Below are positions 20,379 through 45,741 of a DNA stretch of 52,116 bases, one piece after another (the stretch's first letter is position 1; each line of letters opens with the position of its first letter). Origin of the DNA: a virus (lineage: Duplodnaviria; Caudoviricetes); the IMG/VR virus record IMGVR_UViG_3300027704_000032, positions 1 through 52,116 of that record, one strand, 5' to 3'. A program made the position numbers and the translations under genes. The notes below the pieces were generated by a model. The model was not told the origin of the DNA, ran no database searches, and saw nothing but the letters and a program-made list of their open reading frames with translations.

Positions 20379-20455
<77 letters not shown>

Positions 20456-20456
20456 G

Positions 20457-20535
20457 TACTTAAAGTATTACCTTAAGTAATATATTATTTATATATTATA
20501 ATAAGATTAAAATACTTTAAGTAATACTATAAGTA
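20457..20535. repeat. Origin-like element A: two pairs of TACTTWAAGTA-type 11-bp dyads flanking an AT core
   Basis: Dyads at 20457, 20469, 20513 and 20525, with an almost pure A/T stretch at 20480-20512. Confidence 0.6.
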
Positions 20536-20536
20536 T

Positions 20537-20568
20537 ATTATATAGGGGAGCTTGGACATTCTGTCAAG
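20537..20568 (-). promoter_or_regulatory. Sigma70 promoter driving tRNA and replication genes
   Basis: Minus strand CTTGAC-N17-CTATAT (then AAT), matching the alphaproteobacterial RpoD consensus. Confidence 0.8.
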
Positions 20569-20580
20569 TGCGACATATTG

Positions 20581-21531
20581 TCAGAAGTATTTGTATACAT
20601 CACCGTCATTAAAATAATCCCCATAGTATTTGCTGTCGTCAATACCTGCCTCCTCCATTAGTGCATAATACTTGACACCCCATCCATCAAGTAGCTCGGC
20701 TACCTTGTGGGGGTGATCTTGTATCATTGTCTTGATTGCTTCTATGTTGTCCTCATCAGAGCTACTACCACTGTTACGCCAGTCACCCCATGTGTCCTCA
20801 ATCACAGCAGGGTCACGTCTGAACAACAACATATCCCAATCAGCATTGACAAGAGAGTCACATAAAAACTCTGCATATACAAGGTCTTGTGTCTCATTGA
20901 CACCGTGCTGCCCATAGTAACCAACACTGATGTTAGTACACTCAGACACTACAGAGGCATACTCGTTGCTATCAGTGTATGAGCCACCATCATCAGCAAC
21001 TAACTGTGACATGTACAGTGCATCAGCAAATGACATAGCAAATTCTTCTGAGGCTGTACGTAAGCCCATCTGGTGTGTGATGACTGACTTATCACCGAAC
21101 CTGTCGAAGGATATCACAGCGTCTATATGACGCAACCATTCTGGATCATCAGCTACCAATGCACGGCTACCCTTACAGCCTACCTCCTCAGCAGCATGTA
21201 TAACATACACACCCTTGACCTCAGCCTCAATCATATTCATGATTAGCCAGATACCAGTGGTACAATCAGCACCTAGGCAGCTGGATGTTGTAGCATCTGC
21301 GACTGATACTATGTCATTAACGACAAGGACATTCTGCATACCCTCAAGTCTATGCACCGTGTCGTGATGTGCAGTGAAGCACAGGTTAGGATTGTCACCC
21401 ACTGACAGTATGTAGTTACCGTGTATGTCAGGTAATCCAAAGGTAGGTTCGAGAAACCTCTGACAAAATTCTTTCTGCGTTTGGCTACCCTCTGGGCGCT
21501 TGTATCGCAGCATTTCTATTAGACTATACAT
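20581..21531 (-). CDS. M28/M20-like zinc peptidase
   Basis: AHHDTVH, LGAD, AEEVG, SFDR, YTD and NISVGY..QH metal-binding pattern; start moved to MYSLIE (TAATG overlap). Confidence 0.75.
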   Translation of the reverse strand: MYSLIEMLRYKRPEGSQTQKEFCQRFLEPTFGLPDIHGNYILSVGDNPNLCFTAHHDTVHRLEGMQNVLVVNDIVSVADATTSSCLGADCTTGIWLIMNMIEAEVKGVYVIHAAEEVGCKGSRALVADDPEWLRHIDAVISFDRFGDKSVITHQMGLRTASEEFAMSFADALYMSQLVADDGGSYTDSNEYASVVSECTNISVGYYGQHGVNETQDLVYAEFLCDSLVNADWDMLLFRRDPAVIEDTWGDWRNSGSSSDEDNIEAIKTMIQDHPHKVAELLDGWGVKYYALMEEAGIDDSKYYGDYFNDGDVYKYF

Positions 21532-23192
21532 TATATATCCATCTCTTCTTGTTTGTTTTCCCACAGGCAGTCATCATTCAACTCCCATATACCCTCGTCA
21601 TCATTAAGCTCTTGTCTGGATACTGTGTCACCATCAACCAAGGTACACATGGCAACTACAAGGTGTAGCTCACCATCCCAGTCAGATAGAAAGTAATCAC
21701 CTATATCATCAGGTGATATCCATTCATCGTCACCCTCACAGTATTGTACATCATCTATGTGCCAATGCTCACCATCACTGCACAGCACAAAGCAGTCACC
21801 TTGATTAGCTGCCCACTGAGACACCACTAGCTCTTCCTTGATACCTGTACGGTCAATCCTATATGCGGTAACAGCATCGTCATTGTGGTGTGACTCCTCT
21901 GAATACTCACAGTAGAAGTGTTCGTCGTGAAAGCAACTCTCGCAGAAGTCCTCCTCACAATGCTCAGACCACATACTTTCATGCTCATCTAAGCCATCAC
22001 CACAGCGAGCACAGTGATTTTCATACCCACCAAGTACACCACTGTAGTTGCTTGCATCTATGTCACCACAATCATCCTGTATGAGGTACTTACCATCATC
22101 GGTCAAACTTAGCATACGTGGCTCAGTGTCTAGGTAAGGTGCAATGTAACGGCCCTCTCCCTCACCACTAGCAGGTATGGCAAGCAGCCTAGCAGCACCC
22201 CAGTGAGGAGTGTCTGTCTCTGCATCCATCTCACCTAGGTGATCCTCTATCATGTCCAGTGCTTGCTCTGATACACCGTAGATAGGCCCAGCTTGAGGGC
22301 CAATACAGTCATCACCTGTGTAAACCACACATCGGCCAGCAACTAGACCCTTCTGATCTAAGGCTGTGACTACGGTGAAGTCACCACTTGCATACGCCTC
22401 AGCTGGGTGACAGTCAAGGTGATCGAAGTCATACCGCATACAACTGGATGAAGAGGACTTACGATTGTGTGTGGTGCTGATGTTCTCCATCGGTGATTGA
22501 GTACCACCATAGGCCAGCTTGAATGCAGCCCTATCCTTGGCGACAGAGATAGTCATTGTCCTAGGTACAAATTCCTTAAGGAAATCATCTACTAACAGTA
22601 TGACCTGCTTGTGCTCCAACTCAGGGAACATGGTAGAGATAGCACGACCGGGCTTCATCACTGTATGCCTGTCATCCATCCTCATGTCAAGTGACTTGTA
22701 TATACTCATGCTACCATACTTGAGCTTAGACCTGATAGGCTGGAAGGCAGTGAGCCTACGCTGCCACTTGAATACACTGGTCGGAAAGCAGTCAGACCTA
22801 GCCTCAGCATGCCTACGTTTGGTCAAGCCGCCTAGCACTTTACCATCAGATGTATTATAGTGTTCGTAAAAGTAGGTTGTAAACCACTTGAATAACCTCA
22901 CATCCTCAGTGGAGTAATCAGGTATACTATCGAAAGGCCCCCACTCCTTGAGTACAGGGTCAGCCTCACCTTCATCTTTAAGGGTAACACGCTTGACTAC
23001 AAAGCCTGCTTCCTTAGGTAGATGTACCCACCACTTAGTCTTATTGTCTAGCTGGATGTACCCACCTATTAGATTACCATCCATTACGACATGACATTCA
23101 CTGTCGACATCATAGGACTTGTACTGCGTAACAGCCTCAGCCCCGCTGCCAATTATGCTATCTATATTGACAGCAACTAAAGAGTATTGCAT
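21531..23192 (-). CDS. Large early protein with SCM/GR/IYG/PYLD core and C-terminal Cys/acidic zinc-finger-like repeats
   Basis: 553 aa from MQYSL (GGAGG RBS); KPGR, SSCM, AGRCVV, PYLD; CARC, C...FC..C and further Cys repeats. Confidence 0.65.
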   Translation of the reverse strand: MQYSLVAVNIDSIIGSGAEAVTQYKSYDVDSECHVVMDGNLIGGYIQLDNKTKWWVHLPKEAGFVVKRVTLKDEGEADPVLKEWGPFDSIPDYSTEDVRLFKWFTTYFYEHYNTSDGKVLGGLTKRRHAEARSDCFPTSVFKWQRRLTAFQPIRSKLKYGSMSIYKSLDMRMDDRHTVMKPGRAISTMFPELEHKQVILLVDDFLKEFVPRTMTISVAKDRAAFKLAYGGTQSPMENISTTHNRKSSSSSCMRYDFDHLDCHPAEAYASGDFTVVTALDQKGLVAGRCVVYTGDDCIGPQAGPIYGVSEQALDMIEDHLGEMDAETDTPHWGAARLLAIPASGEGEGRYIAPYLDTEPRMLSLTDDGKYLIQDDCGDIDASNYSGVLGGYENHCARCGDGLDEHESMWSEHCEEDFCESCFHDEHFYCEYSEESHHNDDAVTAYRIDRTGIKEELVVSQWAANQGDCFVLCSDGEHWHIDDVQYCEGDDEWISPDDIGDYFLSDWDGELHLVVAMCTLVDGDTVSRQELNDDEGIWELNDDCLWENKQEEMDI

Positions 23193-23202
23193 TTTATATC
23201 CT

Positions 23203-23237
23203 CCAAAAGAATTGCCCCACACAATTAGCATGGGGCT
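23203..23237 (-). terminator. Possible intrinsic terminator in the early region
   Basis: Minus strand GCCCCATGC-TAATT-GTGTGGGGC followed by AATTCTTTT. Confidence 0.5.
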
Positions 23238-23242
23238 ATTGA

Positions 23243-23644
23243 TTAGGCATCAATGATACCTACCTTGTGTTCAGTGACAGTGATTGTCTTGAAGGTGTCA
23301 CCTACCTTCAGTTGCTTACGCACCTTAGCAAACTCAGTAGTAGACATCACCTTGCCATTCATGATGTAACCTCCACGCTTGACCAAGATGTTGAACCTAC
23401 CCTTAGCGATAGGCTTCACCACCTTAGCACGATCAAGGTTAGGGTTACGGGCTGCTGACTTAGGCAAGAAGCCAAGACGCTTGTAAGCCTTGGACATTGC
23501 ACCAGTACTCATGTCGATATTAAAGTGAGCCATTGTATCAGGTGCAGTATGATTGCTGTAATACTCACAGATTTCTAACCACTTTGCAGCAGTGAGGTTT
23601 AGTTTGATGCCTTGCTTACGAGTTGTTGTTGTAGTATTAGCCAT
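23243..23644 (-). CDS. Basic early protein, possible DNA-binding
   Basis: 133 aa, Lys/Arg-rich, GAGGAG RBS. Confidence 0.65.
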   Translation of the reverse strand: MANTTTTTRKQGIKLNLTAAKWLEICEYYSNHTAPDTMAHFNIDMSTGAMSKAYKRLGFLPKSAARNPNLDRAKVVKPIAKGRFNILVKRGGYIMNGKVMSTTEFAKVRKQLKVGDTFKTITVTEHKVGIIDA

Positions 23645-23722
23645 GATTTTATCTCCTCAGATAAGTTATAAGATACCCCAATGGTATCACGCTAAGCACT
23701 CCTCCAAGTGCCTAGTCTGATA

Positions 23723-23854
23723 CTATCGTATGGTTACGTTAGTTATACCTTTCTCCTTTAGGGCTATCAGTAGCCCCTCTATGCCACTCTCAGACATGGT
23801 GCAGTGTAACACATCATCTATGTACACCTTCACAGTCCTGCTATCATACTTCAT
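23723..23854 (-). CDS. Small early protein (43 aa, not in ORF track)
   Basis: MKYDSRTVKVYIDDVLHCTM...NVTIR, overlapping the upstream gene end. Confidence 0.5.
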   Translation of the reverse strand: MKYDSRTVKVYIDDVLHCTMSESGIEGLLIALKEKGITNVTIR

Positions 23855-24053
23855 TTCTAATCATCCTGTGTACAAACATCGTTACATCTTTAGACACACC
23901 ATCACTACCAGATATTTCCAATTCCATATCGGTGTGACCAAAGTCCTCATCCTCTAACACATAGTGTTGCACACAGGCATGCAGGCTGTTGCCCTGCACA
24001 TCCACCATGTTTGCACCATACTCAGTCTCATACCATCCAGTTAAACGTAACAT
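23844..24053 (-). CDS. Small early hypothetical protein
   Basis: 69 aa, GGAGG RBS. Confidence 0.6.
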   Translation of the reverse strand: MLRLTGWYETEYGANMVDVQGNSLHACVQHYVLEDEDFGHTDMELEISGSDGVSKDVTMFVHRMIRNEV

Positions 24054-24065
24054 TATATTCCTCCA

Positions 24066-24206
24066 TTACATTACACACAGTGAGGCACCGTATATTTTAC
24101 CACACCAAAAGAACAACCCACATCCTACGACAAAGCACATCAGCACATTCACTGCCATGTACACCCTTTCGGATTGCTGCACTTGTTTATGTTCAAGTCT
24201 ATTCAT
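24066..24206 (-). CDS. Small early membrane protein (46 aa, not in ORF track)
   Basis: ATGA overlap with the upstream gene; MNRLEHKQ...VNVLMCFVVGCGLFFWCG hydrophobic segment. Confidence 0.55.
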   Translation of the reverse strand: MNRLEHKQVQQSERVYMAVNVLMCFVVGCGLFFWCGKIYGASLCVM

Positions 24207-24412
24207 CCTGCCACTACCTTCCATTCAAGATTAAATACACTAGGGAAAAAGTTATTCACCCTACCAGTTGAAGCCTCATGCCTTGGTATCTCAGCACTAT
24301 CAAGCACAGCTACATCACCACGAAAGTCAGTGAGGGTATCACCCCTAGTCACAGGGTTGCCACCACTATCCACGAGCATCCACATACGCCCATTACTATC
24401 TACTCTAGTCAT
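24203..24412 (-). CDS. Small early hypothetical protein
   Basis: Start moved to MTRVDS (AGGAG RBS); GD...DFRG and STGRV..F.SVF motifs. Confidence 0.6.
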   Translation of the reverse strand: MTRVDSNGRMWMLVDSGGNPVTRGDTLTDFRGDVAVLDSAEIPRHEASTGRVNNFFPSVFNLEWKVVAG

Positions 24413-24499
24413 ATCAATTTCTCCTTTGTTAGATATGCACAAGAAAACACCCCACGCTTTCACATAGGGTGTTGTTCTACTGTATATCTGTGTCGGTAT

Positions 24500-25030
24500 T
24501 TATGCAGCAACTTTCAAGCCTGTGCGTTGGGCCTGCAACGCTGCGATCATCACCTCAAGTTGATCAGGATTAGTTTTCAACTGACGTTCTGCCCACACCA
24601 TTGCATCAAATTCTTTTGGTGCTGCCTCAGGCTTAGGGAAAGCACTGTCAAATTTATCATCTTTGATAGTGCACTTGACAATGCATAGCTGCTCAATCGC
24701 AGCAATGGCATTCAGTACCAACACCTGATCAACCTCACCATCAATATCGACAGCGCACTTGCCGTCTTTGAAAATCAATTTGACGTTAGGCAATGCCACC
24801 GCAAGTATGCGCTTCAAAGGTGCAGCGAACCGCTTGCCAGTAGCATCAGCTTTATTCTTGCCGAATTTCTTGCCGTTCACATAGGCCGCCATACGATACA
24901 AAGGCAAGTTATTTTTATCAGCAAAACATTCAAGCACTTGCTTACTTGACTTGAAAAACCCAAGCTCAGCACCACGAGAATTAGATACAAATTTCTCGAC
25001 ATGATTAGTTTCAACATTTTTAATAGACAT
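24500..25030 (-). CDS. First early gene, hypothetical
   Basis: Start moved to MSIKNV (GGAGA RBS); the upstream extension in the ORF track runs through a hairpin. Confidence 0.65.
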   Translation of the reverse strand: MSIKNVETNHVEKFVSNSRGAELGFFKSSKQVLECFADKNNLPLYRMAAYVNGKKFGKNKADATGKRFAAPLKRILAVALPNVKLIFKDGKCAVDIDGEVDQVLVLNAIAAIEQLCIVKCTIKDDKFDSAFPKPEAAPKEFDAMVWAERQLKTNPDQLEVMIAALQAQRTGLKVAA

Positions 25031-25382
25031 AGCATTTCTCCATTTTTTTGCCATACAACAAAACACACCACACCATGCGATGTGCTTTGCATGTTGGCAC
25101 ATGCAGCCCCTCACCATACAATCCCCCTTGATATATCTAAAGGGTAGCTTTCGCAGGACACACCAACTTGCACATAGACTACCACCTATATGATGGGCGC
25201 ATGTGTTTTGGTGTTTATATCTGAATTTCTAGGGCCGCTTTTTGTTTTAAAGTTGTCACCCACGGGGACGATATCGAACCCGCTTGCAATATTTTTACCA
25301 CCTCAATCAAGATATGCTGATCTGATTTTCCTATAATCGGAGTTGTCAATTCCTAAGGCCAGATTGAGGCTACTATTCAAAA

Positions 25383-25394
25383 TGTCAAATAACG
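25383..25394 (-). promoter_or_regulatory. boxA-like antitermination signal
   Basis: Minus strand CGTTATTTGACA(TT) resembles rrn/lambda boxA (GCTCTTTAACA; GYTCTTTGACA in alphaproteobacteria); upstream of all early genes. Confidence 0.55.
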
Positions 25395-25518
25395 GTGGGT
25401 CACTGCCCTAGGCTGAACCGAATCAATCTGGTGAACTAAGCCCCGTCAAATTCGATGAACAATCAATAGCACCAACAAATCAGATTGAAACCCCATTGAA
25501 AACATTGAATAAAATTTA

Positions 25519-25531
25519 AATCAATAAATTA
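25519..25531 (+). promoter_or_regulatory. IHF consensus site
   Basis: AATCAATAAATTA = WATCAANNNNTTR with an A-rich upstream flank. Confidence 0.45.
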
Positions 25532-25564
25532 TTATCTAATAAAAACAGATAGATAAATGATTTG

Positions 25565-25954
25565 TTGCGAATGGTTCTCAAGTAAAAAAGTGATAGTTGT
25601 TACAATACTGAAACATTTCGTGATCTATGAGAACAAAACGAGAACCTATTATATATTATATAGTATAAGGGAATTTTTTACCAAATGGTCAAGAATACAG
25701 TGAACGAATAGGGAACAAAGGTTTTGAGGTACCAAAGCCCCACAATATTCCTTTCGTTGCTGCATGGGGCTAAAATCAGGCTCTCTGTCGTGTTCACTGT
25801 ATGTTCTACTACCTGTTCACGGTATGTTCTACTCAGGGTGGATAGGTCAGTATCACTTACCTATTACTCAGGGTGAGGGGGGATAGGTCAGTAGAGCTGA
25901 CGTATTGGGGGGATGTGTTTTATTTCTTACTTCCCTCTTGCGAATGACTCGCAA
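25565..25954. promoter_or_regulatory. Two Fur/Mur-like boxes (25565-25581, 25938-25954)
   Basis: TTGCGAATGGTTCTCAA and TTGCGAATGACTCGCAA, 17-bp dyads. Confidence 0.5.
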
Positions 25955-26062
25955 TCTCACAGAATTGTAAACAAACCGTGAACATGCCCCAATAATAGTG
26001 TTACATTGTGCATAATATTGTGTAATAACAGCAGTTTAACTGTGAGTGTTCCCCTTTTGTTC
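25631..26062. promoter_or_regulatory. Array of alphaproteobacterial LexA (SOS) boxes
   Basis: GAAC-N7-GAAC at 25631 and 25702; GTTC-N7-GTTC at 25792, 25815 and 26048; one-mismatch AAAC-N7-GAAC at 25969. Confidence 0.8.
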
Positions 26063-26086
26063 TATAGGTCAGTGTTATTGACCCAT
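25842..26086. repeat. Three copies of a 23-bp dyad ATAGGTCAGT-N3-RYTKACSYAT
   Basis: 25842-25864, 25883-25905 and 26064-26086; identical left arms, near-complementary right arms. Confidence 0.7.
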
Positions 26087-26156
26087 TGACTACCCCCCGC
26101 ATGGGCCACCCCACCCTCCCCCGTATGCGTATACACACAATGACAGCGGGGAGTAT

Positions 26157-26182
26157 TTTACAATCTGTTAACCACATGTTAA
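26157..26182. promoter_or_regulatory. CtrA box
   Basis: TTAA-CCACATG-TTAA at 26168-26182 (TTAA-N7-TTAAC on the minus strand), plus an in-phase TTTA half site at 26157. Confidence 0.55.
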
Positions 26183-26484
26183 TACAACCCCATATGAGTA
26201 TTACTCAGAGTAAAACTTGTTTCCTACTAGTAATATTTGACCATTTGGTAAAATTTCTAGTTATTATACCTCAATTATGTTATAATAATATTAGATCCGT
26301 AGAATCACGGTAATACACTCAGGGTATGTCGGCTTATTAAAACTAATTACCCCCACTCAGAGGGCCTCTCTGTAGCTCTCAGAGCATACTGGGGGTAAAT
26401 CGGGGGTGTTATGAGTGATACGACAGACACAGCTGGGGGTAGGTCGATAAAATAATAATAATTAATATTTATTTTTATCTGCCC

Positions 26485-26515
26485 CTTGACATCGGCGCTC
26501 AGAGTGCTATATAAT
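26485..26515 (+). promoter_or_regulatory. Sigma70 promoter (rightward)
   Basis: CTTGAC-N16-CTATAT(AAT), AT-rich UP-like tract upstream. Confidence 0.75.
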
Positions 26516-26640
26516 ACTTATAGTATATACTTTAAGTAACTCTGAGTGTACTTAAAGTATTACCTCTAGTATTTATTATTTTTATAATATATAATTAATA
26601 CATATTTAAAGTAATACTTAAAGTAATACTTAAAGTACCC
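26515..26640. repeat. Origin-like element B: seven TACTTWAAGTA-type dyads flanking an AT core
   Basis: Dyads at 26515, 26528, 26549, 26561, then 26603, 26615, 26627; AT core 26572-26602; an inverted paralogue of element A. Confidence 0.6.
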
Positions 26641-26681
26641 CTTTTAGATGTACAATTTTTTTGTCGTAGGTCTAAAAAGAC

Positions 26682-26710
26682 TTGACCTCAAAAGATTTAA
26701 AGGTATAACT
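26682..26710 (+). promoter_or_regulatory. Promoter for the late arm
   Basis: TTGACC-N16-TATAACT just upstream of the ATG at 26715 (probably near-leaderless). Confidence 0.65.
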
Positions 26711-26714
26711 AGTA

Positions 26715-43853: not shown

Positions 43854-45741
43854 TAATTTAGCCTCATATAAAGTTTTTTGTGCTGGTGGTCTTAATACTA
43901 GCCGTGATGTGTTGTCACAAGGTGAAACACAACCTGGTTCAGCTATTACTTTAATTAACTACGAGCCAGCGGTTACTGGTGGCTATCGTAAGATAAGTGG
44001 CTATAGTAATGATTATGGCACTATTGGTGGCACAGGTAATGTACTAGGTGTAGCTGTTGTTGATGGAATACATGATGGTATTTTTGGAGCACGAAAGCCT
44101 AGCTCCGGTAACAACTACTTACACAGATGGAATCCTTCTGGTGATGGTAGCTGGGTTGCTATAAACTCTAGTCTAGTTGCTAATGATAGGGATGGTGTAT
44201 GTGCTGCACAAACTACTAGCGGCTCAGCTAACCTAGTTATTAATGGTACTTTACACTCAAGCAACACAATTAACTTTACAACTGCTGCATCCCTACAACC
44301 TAGAAAAGTTACTATCTTTTCTGCTGGTGGAGATGTATCAGGTGTATCTTTTACTATTACAGGCACGGACTACTTAGGCACCGCTCTTGTTGAAATAGTA
44401 ACAGGTCCAGCTGCAGATGCTACAGTAACAAGTACAAACTTCTTTAATACTATTACACAGATAGCTGCGGGTGGTGCTGTTACAGGCAATATTGAAGTAG
44501 GGTCAGGTGCTGGACAATACAGACCTACTGCACCTACAATGACAGGTGTAACTAAAGTAAGATTCCTTAAGTACAACTGGTCAGGCCCAAAGATTATTTT
44601 AACTGACGGAATAAACCCTGCTGCTACTTATGATGGCTCAAACTACATTCAAGTAACAGACAGTAATGCCCCAAATAGCCCTAAGTTTTCTGCTTCCTTT
44701 GCAAACCATATGTTTTTAGCTGGTGATCCAACAGATAATTTTAACCTATACTTTAGTGCTCCCCTAAGTGAAACAGACTTCTTATCAGCTAATGGTGCGG
44801 GAGTTATTAATGTTGGGTTCCCTATTGTCGCAATAAAAGCCTTCCGTGATCAACTTTATATCTTTGGAACAACTAATATTAAGAGGCTTGAAGGTAACAA
44901 TTTAGCCAACTTTACTCTAAAAGAAGTAACAGATGATCTGGGTTGTATGGCTTCAGATAGTATCATTGAAGTAGGTGGTGATCTACTATTTCTTTCACAG
45001 GATGGTCTTCGTCCTATTTCTGGCACTGCTAAAATTGGTGACGTAAACTTAGAAACTGTCTCAAAAGACATCCAATCTATTTTTACCGACCTTGTATTTA
45101 GTGTAGACCTTGAAAAAATAGATGCTGTAGTTATCCGACAGAAGACTCAGTTCCGTATTTTTCTTGGTGCTTCTGATGGTCAAGGTGTTATAGGTGGCTT
45201 CAGACAATCACCCAATGGTCTCCAGTTTGAGTACGGTCAAATGTTAGGGATCTTCACTACTTGCGCTGCTAGTGGCTATGTAGATGAGTCTGAGTTTGTT
45301 ATTCACGGGGATAGTGGTGGTAAAGTCCATAGACAAGAACAAGGTAATGACTTTGATGGTGAGCCAATCTTTAGTATATTTCAGACACCTTTCTTTCATA
45401 TGCAAGACCCAGAACAAAGAAAAATATTTTACACAGTAGCTACTTATCTTCGTTCTGAAGGCGACAATGAAATTGTTATGTCTGTTCTGTTTGACTACGA
45501 GGATGTAGATACACTCAGTCCTAGCAACTTTACACTAGTAACACAAGGTGCAGCAGCCTATTTCAACGAGGCTCTGTATGATAGTACAGCAATCTTTGAT
45601 GGTAATCCTGCACCTGTTAGACGAACAAACATCTCAGGTTCAGGAAAATCTGCAGCAATTAAATATGTAACAAATGATACAAACGCATCACACAGTGTAC
45701 AGGGCATAGTGATTACGTTTGGAGTAGGAGATAGGTTGTAA
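43846..45741 (+). CDS. Tail nozzle / tubular protein B (P22 gp10-like beta propeller)
   Basis: GGLN start, LYFS, LYIF, GC.A..SI.EVG..L.FLS.DG.R motifs. Confidence 0.75.
   Translation: MADNLASYKVFCAGGLNTSRDVLSQGETQPGSAITLINYEPAVTGGYRKISGYSNDYGTIGGTGNVLGVAVVDGIHDGIFGARKPSSGNNYLHRWNPSGDGSWVAINSSLVANDRDGVCAAQTTSGSANLVINGTLHSSNTINFTTAASLQPRKVTIFSAGGDVSGVSFTITGTDYLGTALVEIVTGPAADATVTSTNFFNTITQIAAGGAVTGNIEVGSGAGQYRPTAPTMTGVTKVRFLKYNWSGPKIILTDGINPAATYDGSNYIQVTDSNAPNSPKFSASFANHMFLAGDPTDNFNLYFSAPLSETDFLSANGAGVINVGFPIVAIKAFRDQLYIFGTTNIKRLEGNNLANFTLKEVTDDLGCMASDSIIEVGGDLLFLSQDGLRPISGTAKIGDVNLETVSKDIQSIFTDLVFSVDLEKIDAVVIRQKTQFRIFLGASDGQGVIGGFRQSPNGLQFEYGQMLGIFTTCAASGYVDESEFVIHGDSGGKVHRQEQGNDFDGEPIFSIFQTPFFHMQDPEQRKIFYTVATYLRSEGDNEIVMSVLFDYEDVDTLSPSNFTLVTQGAAAYFNEALYDSTAIFDGNPAPVRRTNISGSGKSAAIKYVTNDTNASHSVQGIVITFGVGDRL

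What the first reader, a model, noticed from the sequence alone, without database searches (positions are those of the whole stretch)
25500..26260. Dense array of host transcription-factor operators at the presumed genome end: decoy, sensor or DNA-entry device
About 750 non-coding bp contain roughly 16 closely packed sites for at least seven different factors: LexA x5-6, Fur/Mur-like x2, RutR-like x2, an unknown 23-bp dyad x3, CtrA, IHF and DnaA. Most are far from any evident promoter and belong to unrelated regulons, so ordinary promoter control is unlikely. The phage appears strictly lytic. Hypotheses (inference): (a) a DNA sponge that, once replicated, titrates repressors and derepresses SOS recombination, metal uptake and pyrimidine genes with no protein needed; (b) host proteins coat the first-entering end to ratchet DNA in or block AddAB/defence nucleases; (c) a host-state sensor for early transcription. 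I know of single-factor cases (CtrA or LexA sites in phages) but not such a multi-regulator array.
Basis: partly seen in the sequence, partly recalled or inferred. Interest (0 to 1): 0.92.

Follow-up and report, generated by a model that had tools for sequence, protein, structure and literature searches.

The report
Host-repressor docking sites on phage control region
The gene-free stretch between the two diverging gene arms of an uncultured marine roseobacter phage is packed with DNA sites that match the docking sites of its host's own DNA-damage, pyrimidine and heme/iron regulators, so the phage probably reads the host's state before switching on its early genes.

Summary
The core observation holds. 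All 5 exact alphaproteobacterial SOS boxes (GTTC-N7-GTTC) of the 52-kb contig lie within 432 bp, against 0.017 expected in shuffles. A sixth is imperfect. The region also holds two RutR-type boxes (13/14), three copies of a 23-bp dyad and two TTGCGA-N5-TCGCAA palindromes. I tested each class in alphaproteobacterial genomes.
- The SOS box stands before lexA in 32 of 40 genomes.
- The RutR palindrome sits beside RutR-like TetR and dihydropyrimidine dehydrogenase genes.
- The "unknown" dyad sits 103-144 nt before dihydropyrimidine dehydrogenase genes.
- The fourth palindrome sits beside hemA, a heme receptor and rubrerythrin.

The CtrA, IHF and DnaA sites are not above chance.

The region is the divergent promoter hub, and it is not shown to be a genome end. 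Box A abuts a conserved -10 in five phages, so this looks like promoter control. Relatives keep 4-6 boxes in changing positions, and CRP-13 has none.

My best reading (0.5) is that host repressors gate an early operon, as Spo0A does in phi29, LexA in GIL01 and CtrA in "lytic deferment". A decoy role is not excluded. No binding has been tested. The scan noted similar arrays on other phage DNA.

The parts
24500..25030 (-). First gene of the leftward early operon (175-205 aa, no known family). It is followed by a 133-aa, a 566-aa and an M28-like peptidase gene, down to 20581.
   Evidence: ORFs. The conserved start is inferred from the alignment. No family was found. tblastn found parts of the operon in 7 of 10 array-bearing loci (p205 in 6, p566 in 6) and in 0 of 6 array-less ones.
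25565..25581 (.). Palindrome 1, TTGCGAATGGTTCTCAA (heme/iron-type operator candidate)
   Evidence: Arm identity to relatives is 0.60.
25631..25645 (-). SOS (LexA-type) box A. Read leftward it is GTTCTCGTTTTGTTC.
   Evidence: It is invariant in 5 of 5 aligned phages. It is the top PWM hit in the window, at 18.6 bits. It differs by 1 base from a genuine lexA operator (L147).
25655..25684 (-). Leftward promoter PL: TTGGTA-18-TATAAT, with the -10 at 25660-25655
   Evidence: 10 of 12 matches. The -10 block is invariant in 5 of 5 phages. Box A starts 2-9 nt after it.
25677..25692 (.). RutR-like box 1, covering the -35 of PL
   Evidence: In the closest relatives this position holds tandem SOS boxes instead.
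25702..25716 (-). SOS box B
   Evidence: PWM score 14.8. Its position is not conserved (identity 0.59).
25771..25776 (+). TAAAAT within GGCTAAAATC, where GGCTAAAAT is invariant: candidate -10 of a rightward promoter ahead of box C
   Evidence: No conserved -35 is present, so this is inference.
25792..25829 (+). SOS boxes C (25792-25806) and D (25815-25829), 23 nt apart
   Evidence: An exact box stands at the place of C in 3 of 4 aligned relatives. D is specific to the window.
25842..25905 (.). Dyad copies 1 (25842-25864) and 2 (25883-25905), ATAGGTCAG-N5-CTGACnTAT
   Evidence: Copy 2 has arm identity 0.85 to relatives and copy 1 has 0.33.
25938..25954 (.). Palindrome 2, TTGCGAATGACTCGCAA
   Evidence: Arm identity is 0.79. 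The identical 17-mer occurs in a host-class genome (G043). It stands 15-31 nt before SOS box E in the window and in relatives.
25969..25983 (-). SOS box E, imperfect here (AAAC-N7-GAAC) and exact in the 4 aligned relatives
   Evidence: In relatives it lies 11 nt before a -10-like hexamer: TATAAT in 2 of 4 and TAGAAT in a third.
26048..26062 (+). SOS box F, abutting dyad copy 3
   Evidence: PWM score 16.6. It is specific to the window (identity 0.16).
26064..26086 (.). Dyad copy 3
   Evidence: Arm identity is 0.81.
26093..26176 (.). Most conserved non-coding block (TGGGCCA, G/C runs, GTATACGTATAC-like stretch, AATGACAGCGGGG, T-run, TCTGTTAAC). Function unknown.
   Evidence: Identity is 0.82. 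It was found in 13 sequences, including CRP-13. No consensus RNA fold was predicted. Summed contig depth there is far above that of its neighbours in 4 metagenome runs.
26237..26252 (.). RutR-like box 2, about 28 nt upstream of the extended -10 TGTTATAAT at 26278-26286
   Evidence: A pair of such boxes flanks the core in L067 as well.
26486..26637 (+). Consensus promoter PR2 (TTGACA-18-TATAAT, 26486-26515), then an array of TACTTAAAGTA palindromes. It lies outside the finding and carries no host-type boxes.
   Evidence: A twin stands at 20566-20455 on the minus strand.

Best explanation
The stretch is the central control region of a tailed phage of the CRP-9/CRP-13 kind (HMO-2011-type structural arm). 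Two gene arms diverge from it. Its early promoters carry operators of host regulators.

Host LexA is the main repressor. It sits on the start site of the leftward early promoter PL, and in relatives also on its -35. It also sits at two or three further promoter-like sites in the core. A RutR-type pyrimidine sensor, a second pyrimidine-operon-type dyad and a heme/iron-type palindrome add further inputs.

In an undamaged cell the early-left operon (p205, p133, p566, M28-like peptidase) and the core transcripts would be held down. LexA cleavage, and pyrimidine or iron signals, would release them. This is a multi-input form of host-imposed deferment of the lytic cycle.

Shown:
- The motifs exist, are enriched, and match genuine host operators.
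- Box A has a fixed position at a conserved -10.
- Box number is kept while positions turn over among relatives.

Inferred: that host proteins bind, the direction of the effect, and the promoters other than PL and PR2.
For: - Enrichment. 5 of the 5 exact boxes in the window lie in 432 bp. Shuffles give a mean of 0.017 and a maximum of 1.
- Match to real operators. 32 of 40 lexA upstream stretches from alphaproteobacterial genomes hold the same box, while spacing controls give 0-2. A matrix built from those 34 sites ranks boxes A, F and B as the three best hits in the window.
- Position on a promoter. Box A and the -10 block are invariant in 5 of 5 aligned phages, and the box starts 2-9 nt after the -10. 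L054 has the same layout, with the TTGCGA palindrome at -35.
- Relatives. 6 loci carry clusters of 3-6 boxes, 6 more distant ones carry close pairs (22-38 nt apart), and L090 carries two boxes 1.5 kb apart. Five near-complete relatives without arrays hold 6 boxes in 274 kb, against 12 for the control pattern.
- Motif classes travel together. SOS boxes occur with the dyad and the palindrome in 7 loci and with the palindrome alone in 2 more. SOS boxes flank a RutR-like box in 4 loci, and L067 holds both kinds without that flanking order.
- Host-genome contexts. RutR palindrome: of 17 flanking ORFs, 5 are TetR_N, 3 are YcdC/RutR-type and 2 are dihydropyrimidine dehydrogenase. Dyad: 6 sites against 1 control, and 3 of them lie 103-144 nt before dihydropyrimidine dehydrogenase-like genes. 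TTGCGA palindrome: 61 sites against 18 control. Its neighbours include 3 5-aminolevulinate synthases, a heme receptor, a rubrerythrin and a ferritin-like protein.
- No regulator of the phage's own was recognised, and it has no LexA homologue.
- Precedents. LexA acts just downstream of the GIL01 P1 start site (PMC4551915, passages). Spo0A boxes repress early promoters of the virulent phage phi29 (PMC2731898, abstract). CtrA sites occur in alphaproteobacterial phages (PMC9437464, passages).
Against: - No binding or expression data exist. No RNA run holds the stretch.
- The host is unknown. The host-class genomes are an unnamed sample of Alphaproteobacteria and are not shown to be Rhodobacteraceae.
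- Only PL and PR2 are convincing sigma-70 promoters. The promoter scan finds 6 sites against 7.5 +/- 3.2 in shuffles.
- Boxes B, D and F and both RutR-like boxes are not positionally conserved.
- Repression by intact LexA would block a strictly lytic phage in healthy cells unless it is leaky or relieved on entry.
- The two strongest promoters, which drive the replication and structural arms, carry none of these boxes.
- Perfect RutR palindromes are barely enriched over the control (10 against 6 sites).
- The TTGCGA sites whose neighbours I examined were chosen for centres like the phage's (20 of 61 sites, 14 used), so that picture may be biased.
- The cultured relative CRP-13 has no SOS box in this region.
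Confidence: 0.5

Rival explanations
1. DNA decoy. Once replicated to high copy, the array soaks up LexA (and RutR and others), so that host SOS, pyrimidine and iron genes are switched on without any phage protein.
For: Box number (4-6) is kept among relatives while positions shift. That pattern fits selection on site count. Several boxes (B, D, F) have no obvious promoter. Four regulons are represented. Earlier notes of this scan describe similar arrays on other phage DNA. Those notes are leads, not support.
Against: The two best-conserved boxes sit on promoter elements. All sites cluster at the control hub and are not spread along the genome. Six sites per genome is few for a sponge. The titration arithmetic cannot be done without the host's LexA numbers. 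CRP-13 and five complete relatives do without the boxes.
Confidence: 0.15
2. Replication origin or silencing complex. The repeats organise a nucleoprotein complex at the origin. Host factors, or an unrecognised phage initiator, bind them to control the start of replication and not transcription.
For: The cumulative GC skew has its minimum here. AT-rich tracts flank the core. The replisome is T7-like (primase-helicase and Pol A), a type whose origins are promoter-linked (established knowledge). The distant relatives L087 and L067 carry more than 10 GGATAG/CTATCC dyads that look like iterons. Spo0A also acts at phi29 origins (PMC2731898, abstract).
Against: The SOS-type boxes lie in both orientations at irregular spacings of 71, 90, 23, 154 and 79 nt, unlike iterons. 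No initiator gene was recognised. DnaA-like boxes are not above chance. The skew switch follows equally from the divergent gene strands.
Confidence: 0.15
3. Look-alikes. The sites are read by small, unrecognised phage proteins, and the likeness to host operators is convergent or irrelevant.
For: About half of the ORFs have no family. CRP-13 carries other palindromes (TGTGATCACA, GTTTAA-N-TTAAAC) in the same place, so the region swaps operator sets. PR2 is followed by TACTTAAAGTA dyads with no host counterpart that I tested.
Against: Four independent motif classes each match operators found at fitting host genes. Box A differs by one base from a real lexA operator. The palindrome at 25938 is identical to a host-class site. 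No HTH or S24 protein was found.
Confidence: 0.12
4. Entry or end device. Host proteins coat the first-entering genome end to pull DNA in or to shield it from nucleases.
For: Many metagenome contigs stop inside this region. The CRP-13 record is opened here.
Against: The region is mid-contig. One complete relative has its assembly end-repeat about 1.9 kb away from the conserved block. Contig breaks are expected at a hypervariable, repeat-rich spot. No raw reads were on hand to map termini.
Confidence: 0.03

Closest known systems
Spo0A boxes of the virulent Bacillus phages phi29 and Nf (PMC2731898, abstract read)
   Same: The phage has no lysogeny genes. Its early promoters carry several sites for a host master regulator, which represses transcription and can suspend the lytic cycle. 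Site position differs between related phages, and that changes the outcome.
   Different: That case has one regulator (Spo0A) and a sporulation signal, and it is shown by experiment. Here four regulator classes are inferred (SOS, two pyrimidine-type, heme/iron-type), the host is an alphaproteobacterium, and nothing has been tested.
LexA control of phage GIL01 promoter P1 (PMC4551915, passages read)
   Same: The host LexA, not a phage CI, binds boxes just downstream of the start site of the promoter for the replication/regulation arm.
   Different: GIL01 is temperate (a linear plasmid prophage) and needs the phage proteins gp1 and gp7. It has two adjacent boxes. Here there are 5-6 boxes of the alphaproteobacterial direct-repeat type, no maintenance genes were found, and no gp7-like partner is known.
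CtrA-mediated 'lytic deferment' in phages of Alphaproteobacteria (PMC9437464, passages read)
   Same: Virulent alphaproteobacterial phages carry promoter-associated sites for a host global regulator, proposed to time the lytic cycle.
   Different: The regulator there is CtrA. The single CtrA-like site here is not above chance and is not conserved. The inputs here are LexA, RutR-type and others.
RutR operators of Escherichia coli, for example at carAB (PMC2475637, passages read)
   Same: A 16-bp palindrome TTGACCAnnTGGTCAA. The phage boxes match 13 of 14 positions with positions 4 and 13 intact, and resemble the carA site and a bound site ending GGTAAA.
   Different: The sites are on phage DNA, as an inverted pair 544 bp apart that flanks the core. 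The binding protein is unknown.

Membership tests
Alphaproteobacterial LexA (SOS) operator | Direct repeat GTTC-N7-GTTC (Caulobacter SOS box, table in PMC9578287) | tested here: met
   5 exact boxes and 1 with 7 of 8 core bases. Other spacings and inverted forms give 0-1 in the window.
Alphaproteobacterial LexA (SOS) operator | Same word stands at genuine autoregulated lexA promoters of the host class | tested here: met
   32 of 40 lexA upstream stretches hold it. A matrix built from them ranks phage boxes A, F and B first in the window.
Alphaproteobacterial LexA (SOS) operator | Overlaps promoter elements | tested here: met
   Met for box A (+1 of PL, 5 of 5 phages) and for box E in relatives (-35 region). 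Unclear for B, C, D and F.
Alphaproteobacterial LexA (SOS) operator | Bound by LexA and induced by DNA damage | not testable with these tools
   No RNA run holds the stretch. No binding data exist.
RutR (TetR-family) operator | 16-bp palindrome TTGACCAnnTGGTCAA with positions 4 and 13 intact | tested here: met
   TTGACCATTTGGTAAA, two copies, 13 of 14. Consensus and key positions are from PMC2475637.
RutR (TetR-family) operator | In host-class genomes the palindrome lies at rutR or pyrimidine-catabolism genes | tested here: met
   10 perfect sites. Of 17 flanking ORFs, 5 are TetR_N, 3 are TetR_C_3 (YcdC-like) and 2 are dihydropyrimidine dehydrogenase. Enrichment over the control is weak (10 against 6).
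Fur-family (Fur/Mur/Irr) operator | Palindrome found at iron/heme genes of host-class genomes | tested here: inconclusive
   61 sites against 18 control. Of 24 flanking ORFs, 3 are 5-aminolevulinate synthase, 1 a heme receptor, 1 a rubrerythrin and 1 ferritin-like. The rest are mixed. The sites were hand-picked, and the regulator is not identified.
GIL01-type LexA-run phage switch | Stable prophage state (plasmid or integrated) and a phage co-factor of LexA | tested here: not met
   No integrase, partition or S24/HTH family was found in the 66 ORFs scanned. Hits in genome collections are phage-sized or short contigs binned into MAGs of unrelated phyla. A gp7-like partner cannot be recognised by sequence.
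Iteron-type replication origin | Same-orientation, regularly spaced repeats next to an initiator gene, with DnaA boxes | tested here: not met
   The boxes lie in mixed orientation at irregular spacing. No initiator was recognised. DnaA-like boxes are at chance level.
Transcription-factor decoy (sponge) DNA | Sites act by number and are not tied to promoters; titration at high copy | tested here: inconclusive
   Count is kept while positions turn over, which speaks for it. The best-conserved boxes sit on promoter elements, which speaks against it. Titration is not testable here.

The most novel reading that the evidence does not exclude
A lineage of abundant, apparently virulent marine roseophages has no regulator of its own at its early switch. 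It runs that switch on four host repressor systems at once: LexA, a RutR-type sensor, a second pyrimidine-operon operator and a heme/iron regulator. Composite operator modules are shuffled between relatives. The same array would then work both as a multi-input gate for deferring the lytic cycle and, after replication, as a sink that loosens those host regulons.
Probability: 0.3. Interest if true: 0.85.

Novelty: new variant of a known kind. Interest (0 to 1): 0.7.

Why it matters
Phages of the RCA roseobacter lineage and their HMO-2011-type kin are among the commonest viruses in coastal seas. How they time infection in slow-growing, UV-exposed hosts is unknown.

If a control hub wired to host DNA-damage, pyrimidine and heme/iron sensors is real, it would give a concrete and testable mechanism for deferred or conditional lysis (pseudolysogeny) without any lysogeny genes.

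The work also ties the previously unassigned 23-bp dyad to a likely host context, the promoters of dihydropyrimidine dehydrogenase genes. And it shows that operator sets are swapped between related phages at one fixed genomic place.

Tried and rejected
- Invertible switch. The 17-nt inverted pair flanking 544 bp suggested an inverton. No strand-change joint was reported in contigs of 4 runs and no recombinase was found. Rejected, weakly.
- Small genes in the gap. Only short ORFs occur. The one I followed (26001-26177, minus strand) loses its start codon in relatives.
- Terminator or small RNA at 26093-26176. The C-run/G-run stem of the window is replaced by G-runs in CRP-13-type relatives, and 13 sequences give no consensus fold. 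Rejected.
- Known RNA families: none.
- Population variants. Among the 40 differences listed (57 more not shown), 1 falls in a GTTC core. That is about what chance gives, so it is uninformative.
- RNA evidence: no RNA holder was listed.
- Termini. All runs are kept as contigs, so ends cannot be seen.
- Function of the first early gene. The PHROGs, Pfam, Atlas and PDB sequence searches gave nothing. An AlphaFold model (mean pLDDT 71.8, 7-row alignment) gave no Foldseek match at E <= 0.001. The 566-aa protein had no PDB sequence match better than E 0.36. The 83-aa first rightward protein had no Atlas hit.
- Prevalence scan with the phage box consensus. 8 of 120 have 3 or more boxes within 1 kb. 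Not followed further.
- Gammaproteobacterial relatives with CTGT-N8-ACAG. None could be identified. The window has one such word, at 45574, outside the region.
- Supplements of the papers were not opened. None bears on a claim made here.
Full report
**What the window is.** The window is a whole IMG/VR virus record of 52,116 bp. It is classed as linear and rated 94% complete. Its nearest named relatives by DNA are the Roseobacter RCA phages CRP-13, CRP-6 and CRP-1.

Gene content splits into two arms that diverge from a gene-free gap.
- The leftward arm (minus strand) holds several genes without a known family, an M28-like peptidase, tRNA-Arg, ThyX, a primase-helicase, DNA polymerase A, a Cas4-type exonuclease, ribonucleotide reductase and PhoH.
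- The rightward arm holds small genes, an endolysin, the large terminase, the portal and structural genes. These run off the contig end and continue at its start.

[quoted passage not shown] The paper reports no integrase for that group (PMC8528129, passages read).

The gap runs from 25118 to 26714, or from about 25031 if the conserved start of the first leftward gene is used. The finding (25500-26260) is its core. The cumulative GC skew has its minimum here. That follows from the strand switch, and a replication origin could add to it.

**Check of the observation: the SOS boxes.** The window holds exactly five words of the form GTTC-N7-GTTC or its complement. All five lie between 25631 and 26062. 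Words with N6 or N8 spacing, or with inverted halves, occur 0-1 times in the whole window. Dinucleotide-preserving shuffles of 25500-26260 give a mean of 0.017 boxes and never more than one in 2000 trials. Shuffles of the whole window give 1.2. A sixth box at 25969-25983 has AAAC for GAAC. It is exact in all four aligned relatives.

**Check of the observation: the other motifs.**
- The RutR-like pair is a perfect 17-nt inverted repeat at 25676-25692 and 26237-26253, with 544 nt between the arms.
- The three dyads start at 25842, 25883 and 26064. The two TTGCGA-N5-TCGCAA palindromes start at 25565 and 25938. At the stringency used, the palindromes are the only such words in the window.
- The CtrA-like word at 26168 is one of three in the window, and its second half is not kept in relatives.
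- DnaA-like nonamers with one mismatch number 2 of 11 in the gap. The IHF-like word is 1 of 4. I treat these three classes as chance.

About 13 sites of four classes are therefore real features.

**Are they host operators? LexA.** The SOS box of Caulobacter is given as GTTCN7GTTC in a review table (PMC9578287). To test this in genomes, I reached a sample of 151 alphaproteobacterial genomes. The route was a metagenome-assembled genome labelled Alphaproteobacteria that holds a relative of a phage gene. The tool hides their names, so I cannot say which are Rhodobacteraceae.

Of 40 lexA upstream stretches of 501 nt, 32 hold an exact GTTC-N7-GTTC, with consensus TGTTCTAGTTTGGTTCT. Other spacings occur 0-2 times. 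Phage box A, read leftward, is GTTCTCGTTTTGTTC. That is one base from one of these operators. A matrix built from the 34 host sites ranks boxes A, F and B as the three best hits in the window.

**Are they host operators? RutR.** The E. coli consensus is TTGACCAnnTGGTCAA, and positions 4 and 13 matter most (PMC2475637). The phage word TTGACCATTTGGTAAA matches 13 of 14 positions with both key positions intact.

Perfect palindromes occur once in each of 10 of the 151 genomes, against 6 sites for the reversed control. Of the 17 flanking ORFs, 5 carry TetR_N, 3 carry the YcdC (RutR)-type C-terminal domain, and 2 are dihydropyrimidine dehydrogenases.

**Are they host operators? The dyad.** TAGGTCA-N7-TGACCTA occurs 6 times in 5 genomes, against 1 control site. 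Five of the six lie in AT-rich spacers of GC-rich genomes. Three of them stand 103-144 nt before dihydropyrimidine dehydrogenase-like genes. Two of those three share a bacA neighbour and may not be independent. A fourth lies beside a small-terminase-like gene.

**Are they host operators? The TTGCGA palindrome.** It gives 61 sites in 39 genomes, against 18 control sites. Among them are words identical to the phage's site at 25938 and to the relatives' site. I examined 24 flanking ORFs at 14 sites. Three are 5-aminolevulinate synthases. One each is a TonB-dependent heme receptor, a rubrerythrin, a ferritin-like protein and a ferredoxin-NADP reductase. The rest are mixed. I chose those sites for centres like the phage's, so this points to a heme/iron regulator but does not prove one. 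The label Fur/Mur is not established.

**Anatomy relative to promoters.** The promoter scan finds a perfect TTGACA-18-TATAAT at 26486-26515 (PR2) and a leftward TTGGTA-18-TATAAT at 25684-25655 (PL). Promoter-like sites as a whole are not enriched.

In an alignment with the four closest relatives, the surroundings are about 50% identical. The block from box A through the -10 of PL is invariant. Read leftward, every one of the five phages has TATACTATATAAT, then 2-9 nt, then GTTCTC-N4-TTGTTC. The box therefore covers the start site, the classical place for a repressor and the same arrangement as LexA at GIL01 P1 (PMC4551915).

The -35 of PL is covered by the RutR-like box in the window. In L019, L038 and L046 it is covered by two or three phased SOS boxes, and in L054 by the TTGCGA palindrome.

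In all four aligned relatives box E lies 11 nt before a -10-like hexamer, which puts it over a -35 region. The hexamer is TATAAT in L046 and L044 and TAGAAT in L038. L019 has no clear one. Box C follows a GGCTAAAATC word (GGCTAAAAT is invariant) that may be a -10. RutR-like box 2 lies about 28 nt upstream of an extended -10, TGTTATAAT, at 26278-26286. That extended -10 is kept in all relatives.

The claim that the sites are far from promoters does not hold for the best-conserved ones. For boxes B, D and F I could assign no promoter.

**Relatives.** The conserved 118-aa protein of the right arm has more than 580 relatives in IMG/VR, and 80 loci were fetched. The 566-aa early protein brought in 18 more.
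- In 793 kb of these loci there are 56 boxes. Thirty of the 56 lie in six loci (L019, L038, L044, L046, L054, L060), 29 of them in clusters of 3-6 in the same gap. L067, L087-L089, L098 and L099 carry close pairs there (22-38 nt apart), and L090 carries two boxes 1.5 kb apart. Some of these share only about 40% identity in the early protein.
- Five near-complete relatives without arrays hold 6 boxes in 274 kb, against 12 for the control pattern.
- CRP-13 has none in its 964-bp gap. It shows other palindromes there.

The classes travel together.
- SOS boxes occur with the dyad and the TTGCGA palindrome in L019, L038, L044, L046, L054, L060 and L098.
- In L090 and L094 the SOS box occurs with the palindrome only.
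- Two SOS boxes flank a RutR-like box in L087-L089 and L099. L067 holds both kinds but without that order.
- L067 has two RutR-like boxes around its core, as the window does.

Positional conservation against the window, measured as identity:

| Element | Identity |
|---|---|
| Box A | 1.0 |
| Dyad 2 | 0.85 |
| Dyad 3 | 0.81 |
| Palindrome 2 | 0.79 |
| Rest of the region | 0.50 |
| Box D | 0.28 |
| Box F | 0.16 |
| RutR-like boxes | 0.50 and 0.36 |

Some sites are therefore fixed and others turn over, while the number of boxes per phage stays at 4-6.

tblastn finds parts of the early-left operon (p205, p566, peptidase) in 7 of 10 array-bearing loci examined and in none of 6 array-less ones, within the DNA fetched.

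**What else is in the gap.**
- An 84-bp block at 26093-26176 is the best-conserved non-coding element. It is shared with CRP-13 and with phages that have other replication modules. It has no consensus RNA fold. In four marine metagenome runs its summed contig depth is far above that of its neighbours, as expected for a piece shared by many populations. Its role is open. A packaging site, an origin or a special promoter are my guesses.
- PR2 is followed by five or six TACTTAAAGTA palindromes. A twin of this whole unit points leftward at 20566-20455, ahead of tRNA-Arg and the replication genes.
- These two consensus promoters carry none of the host-type boxes. The host-type operators therefore seem to govern the early-left operon and the core, not the main replication and structural transcripts directly.

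**How it most likely works.** I rate at 0.5 the reading that this is a promoter hub gated by host repressors. LexA holds PL, and probably two or three core promoters, until it is cleaved. RutR-type and dyad-binding proteins add a pyrimidine signal, and the TTGCGA reader adds a heme/iron signal. Composite modules recur: palindrome plus SOS box 7-25 nt on, SOS box abutting a dyad, and SOS-RutR-SOS. That suggests combined logic.

The phage encodes no recognisable regulator and no LexA homologue.

The closest known systems are these.
- Spo0A boxes of the virulent phage phi29.
- LexA at GIL01.
- The CtrA "lytic deferment" proposal for alphaproteobacterial phages (PMC2731898 abstract; PMC4551915 and PMC9437464 passages).

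The difference here is the number of regulator classes packed into one region, and the apparent lack of any lysogeny gene.

The main weakness of this reading is biological. Intact LexA would hold back a lytic phage in healthy cells unless repression is partial, or is relieved by DNA entry or by copy number.

That weakness keeps the decoy reading alive (0.15). An origin-linked nucleoprotein complex (0.15) and unrecognised phage readers (0.12) also remain possible. An entry device has no support (0.03).

**Novelty.** Host-regulator sites on phage promoters are known one regulator at a time.
- My search for "roseophage" and "LexA" returned 8 papers. None looked from its title or abstract to be about such sites in lytic roseophages (listing only).
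- A search on host transcription factor, binding sites, lytic phage, phage genome and LexA returned 31 papers. Of the 15 listed, the relevant ones are those cited above.
- The CRP-9/CRP-13 paper does not contain the words promoter or intergenic.

I know of no printed description of this array, but these searches cover open-access text only. Earlier notes of this scan report similar multi-regulator arrays on other, unrelated phage DNA. I did not check those notes. They suggest the pattern may be general. I file this as a new variant of a known kind.

Noticed in passing
window 20455-20566 (minus strand) and 26486-26637 (plus strand): Two copies of one unit: a consensus sigma-70 promoter followed by TACTTAAAGTA palindromes around an AT core. 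They point away from each other. The left one stands just ahead of tRNA-Arg and the replication genes. It may be a middle/late promoter with a phage-specific operator, or a T7-style promoter-linked origin.
   Followed up: partly
window 26093-26176: An 84-bp block shared with CRP-13 and with phages that have other replication modules. TGGGCCA is flanked by C-runs in some phages and by G-runs in others. A GTATACGTATAC-like stretch, AATGACAGCGGGG, a T-run and TCTGTTAAC follow. No RNA fold is predicted. Summed depth in metagenome contigs is very high.
   Followed up: partly
window 26290-26450: A conserved stretch right after the extended -10 TGTTATAAT. RNAalifold predicts 28 pairs, 3 of them with changes on both sides. 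It may be a structured leader or a small RNA. Inconclusive.
   Followed up: partly
L001 1-964 (CRP-13 gap); L087 2470-2515; L067 3410-3425: CRP-13 has no SOS box in the homologous gap. It has 3 copies of TGTGATCACA (plus one TGTGACCACA variant) and three GTTTAA-N-TTAAAC-type palindromes instead. TGTGATCACA also occurs in L087 and L067. The same genomic place holds different operator sets in related phages.
   Followed up: no
L087 2830-3030 and 3200-3420; L067 3230-3560: More than ten GGATAG/CTATCC dyads separated by TTTGG-like spacers. They look like iterons and sit where the window has only three ATAGGTCAG dyads.
   Followed up: no
L183 (unnamed alphaproteobacterial genome) 2001-2021: A perfect copy of the dyad lies between a small-terminase-like gene and an AAA_25 gene, so a prophage-like element in a host-class genome uses the same operator.
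   Followed up: no
window 20581-25030 (minus strand): The early-left operon (p205, p133, p566, M28-like peptidase; functions unknown) co-occurs with SOS-box arrays. tblastn found parts of it in 7 of 10 array-bearing loci and in 0 of 6 array-less ones, within the DNA fetched.
   Followed up: partly
window 25590-25627; L001 80-170: The word TGAAACATTnnGTGAT, preceded by GTGATAnTTGTTACA, is shared between the window, CRP-13 (two copies) and L029. This is another unassigned conserved element.
   Followed up: no
L196, L211, L239, L249, L250, L253, L267, L285: Of 120 other IMG/VR loci that hold the phage-type box consensus, 8 have three or more GTTC-N7-GTTC boxes within 1 kb, some phased at 11 nt. 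SOS-type box arrays therefore exist on other viral contigs.
   Followed up: no
window 25118-26714 in runs X2-X5; loci L005, L015, L030, L039: Metagenome contigs often stop inside this gap, and no listed piece spans it. I take this as a sign of strain-level variability or repeats and not of genome ends.
   Followed up: partly
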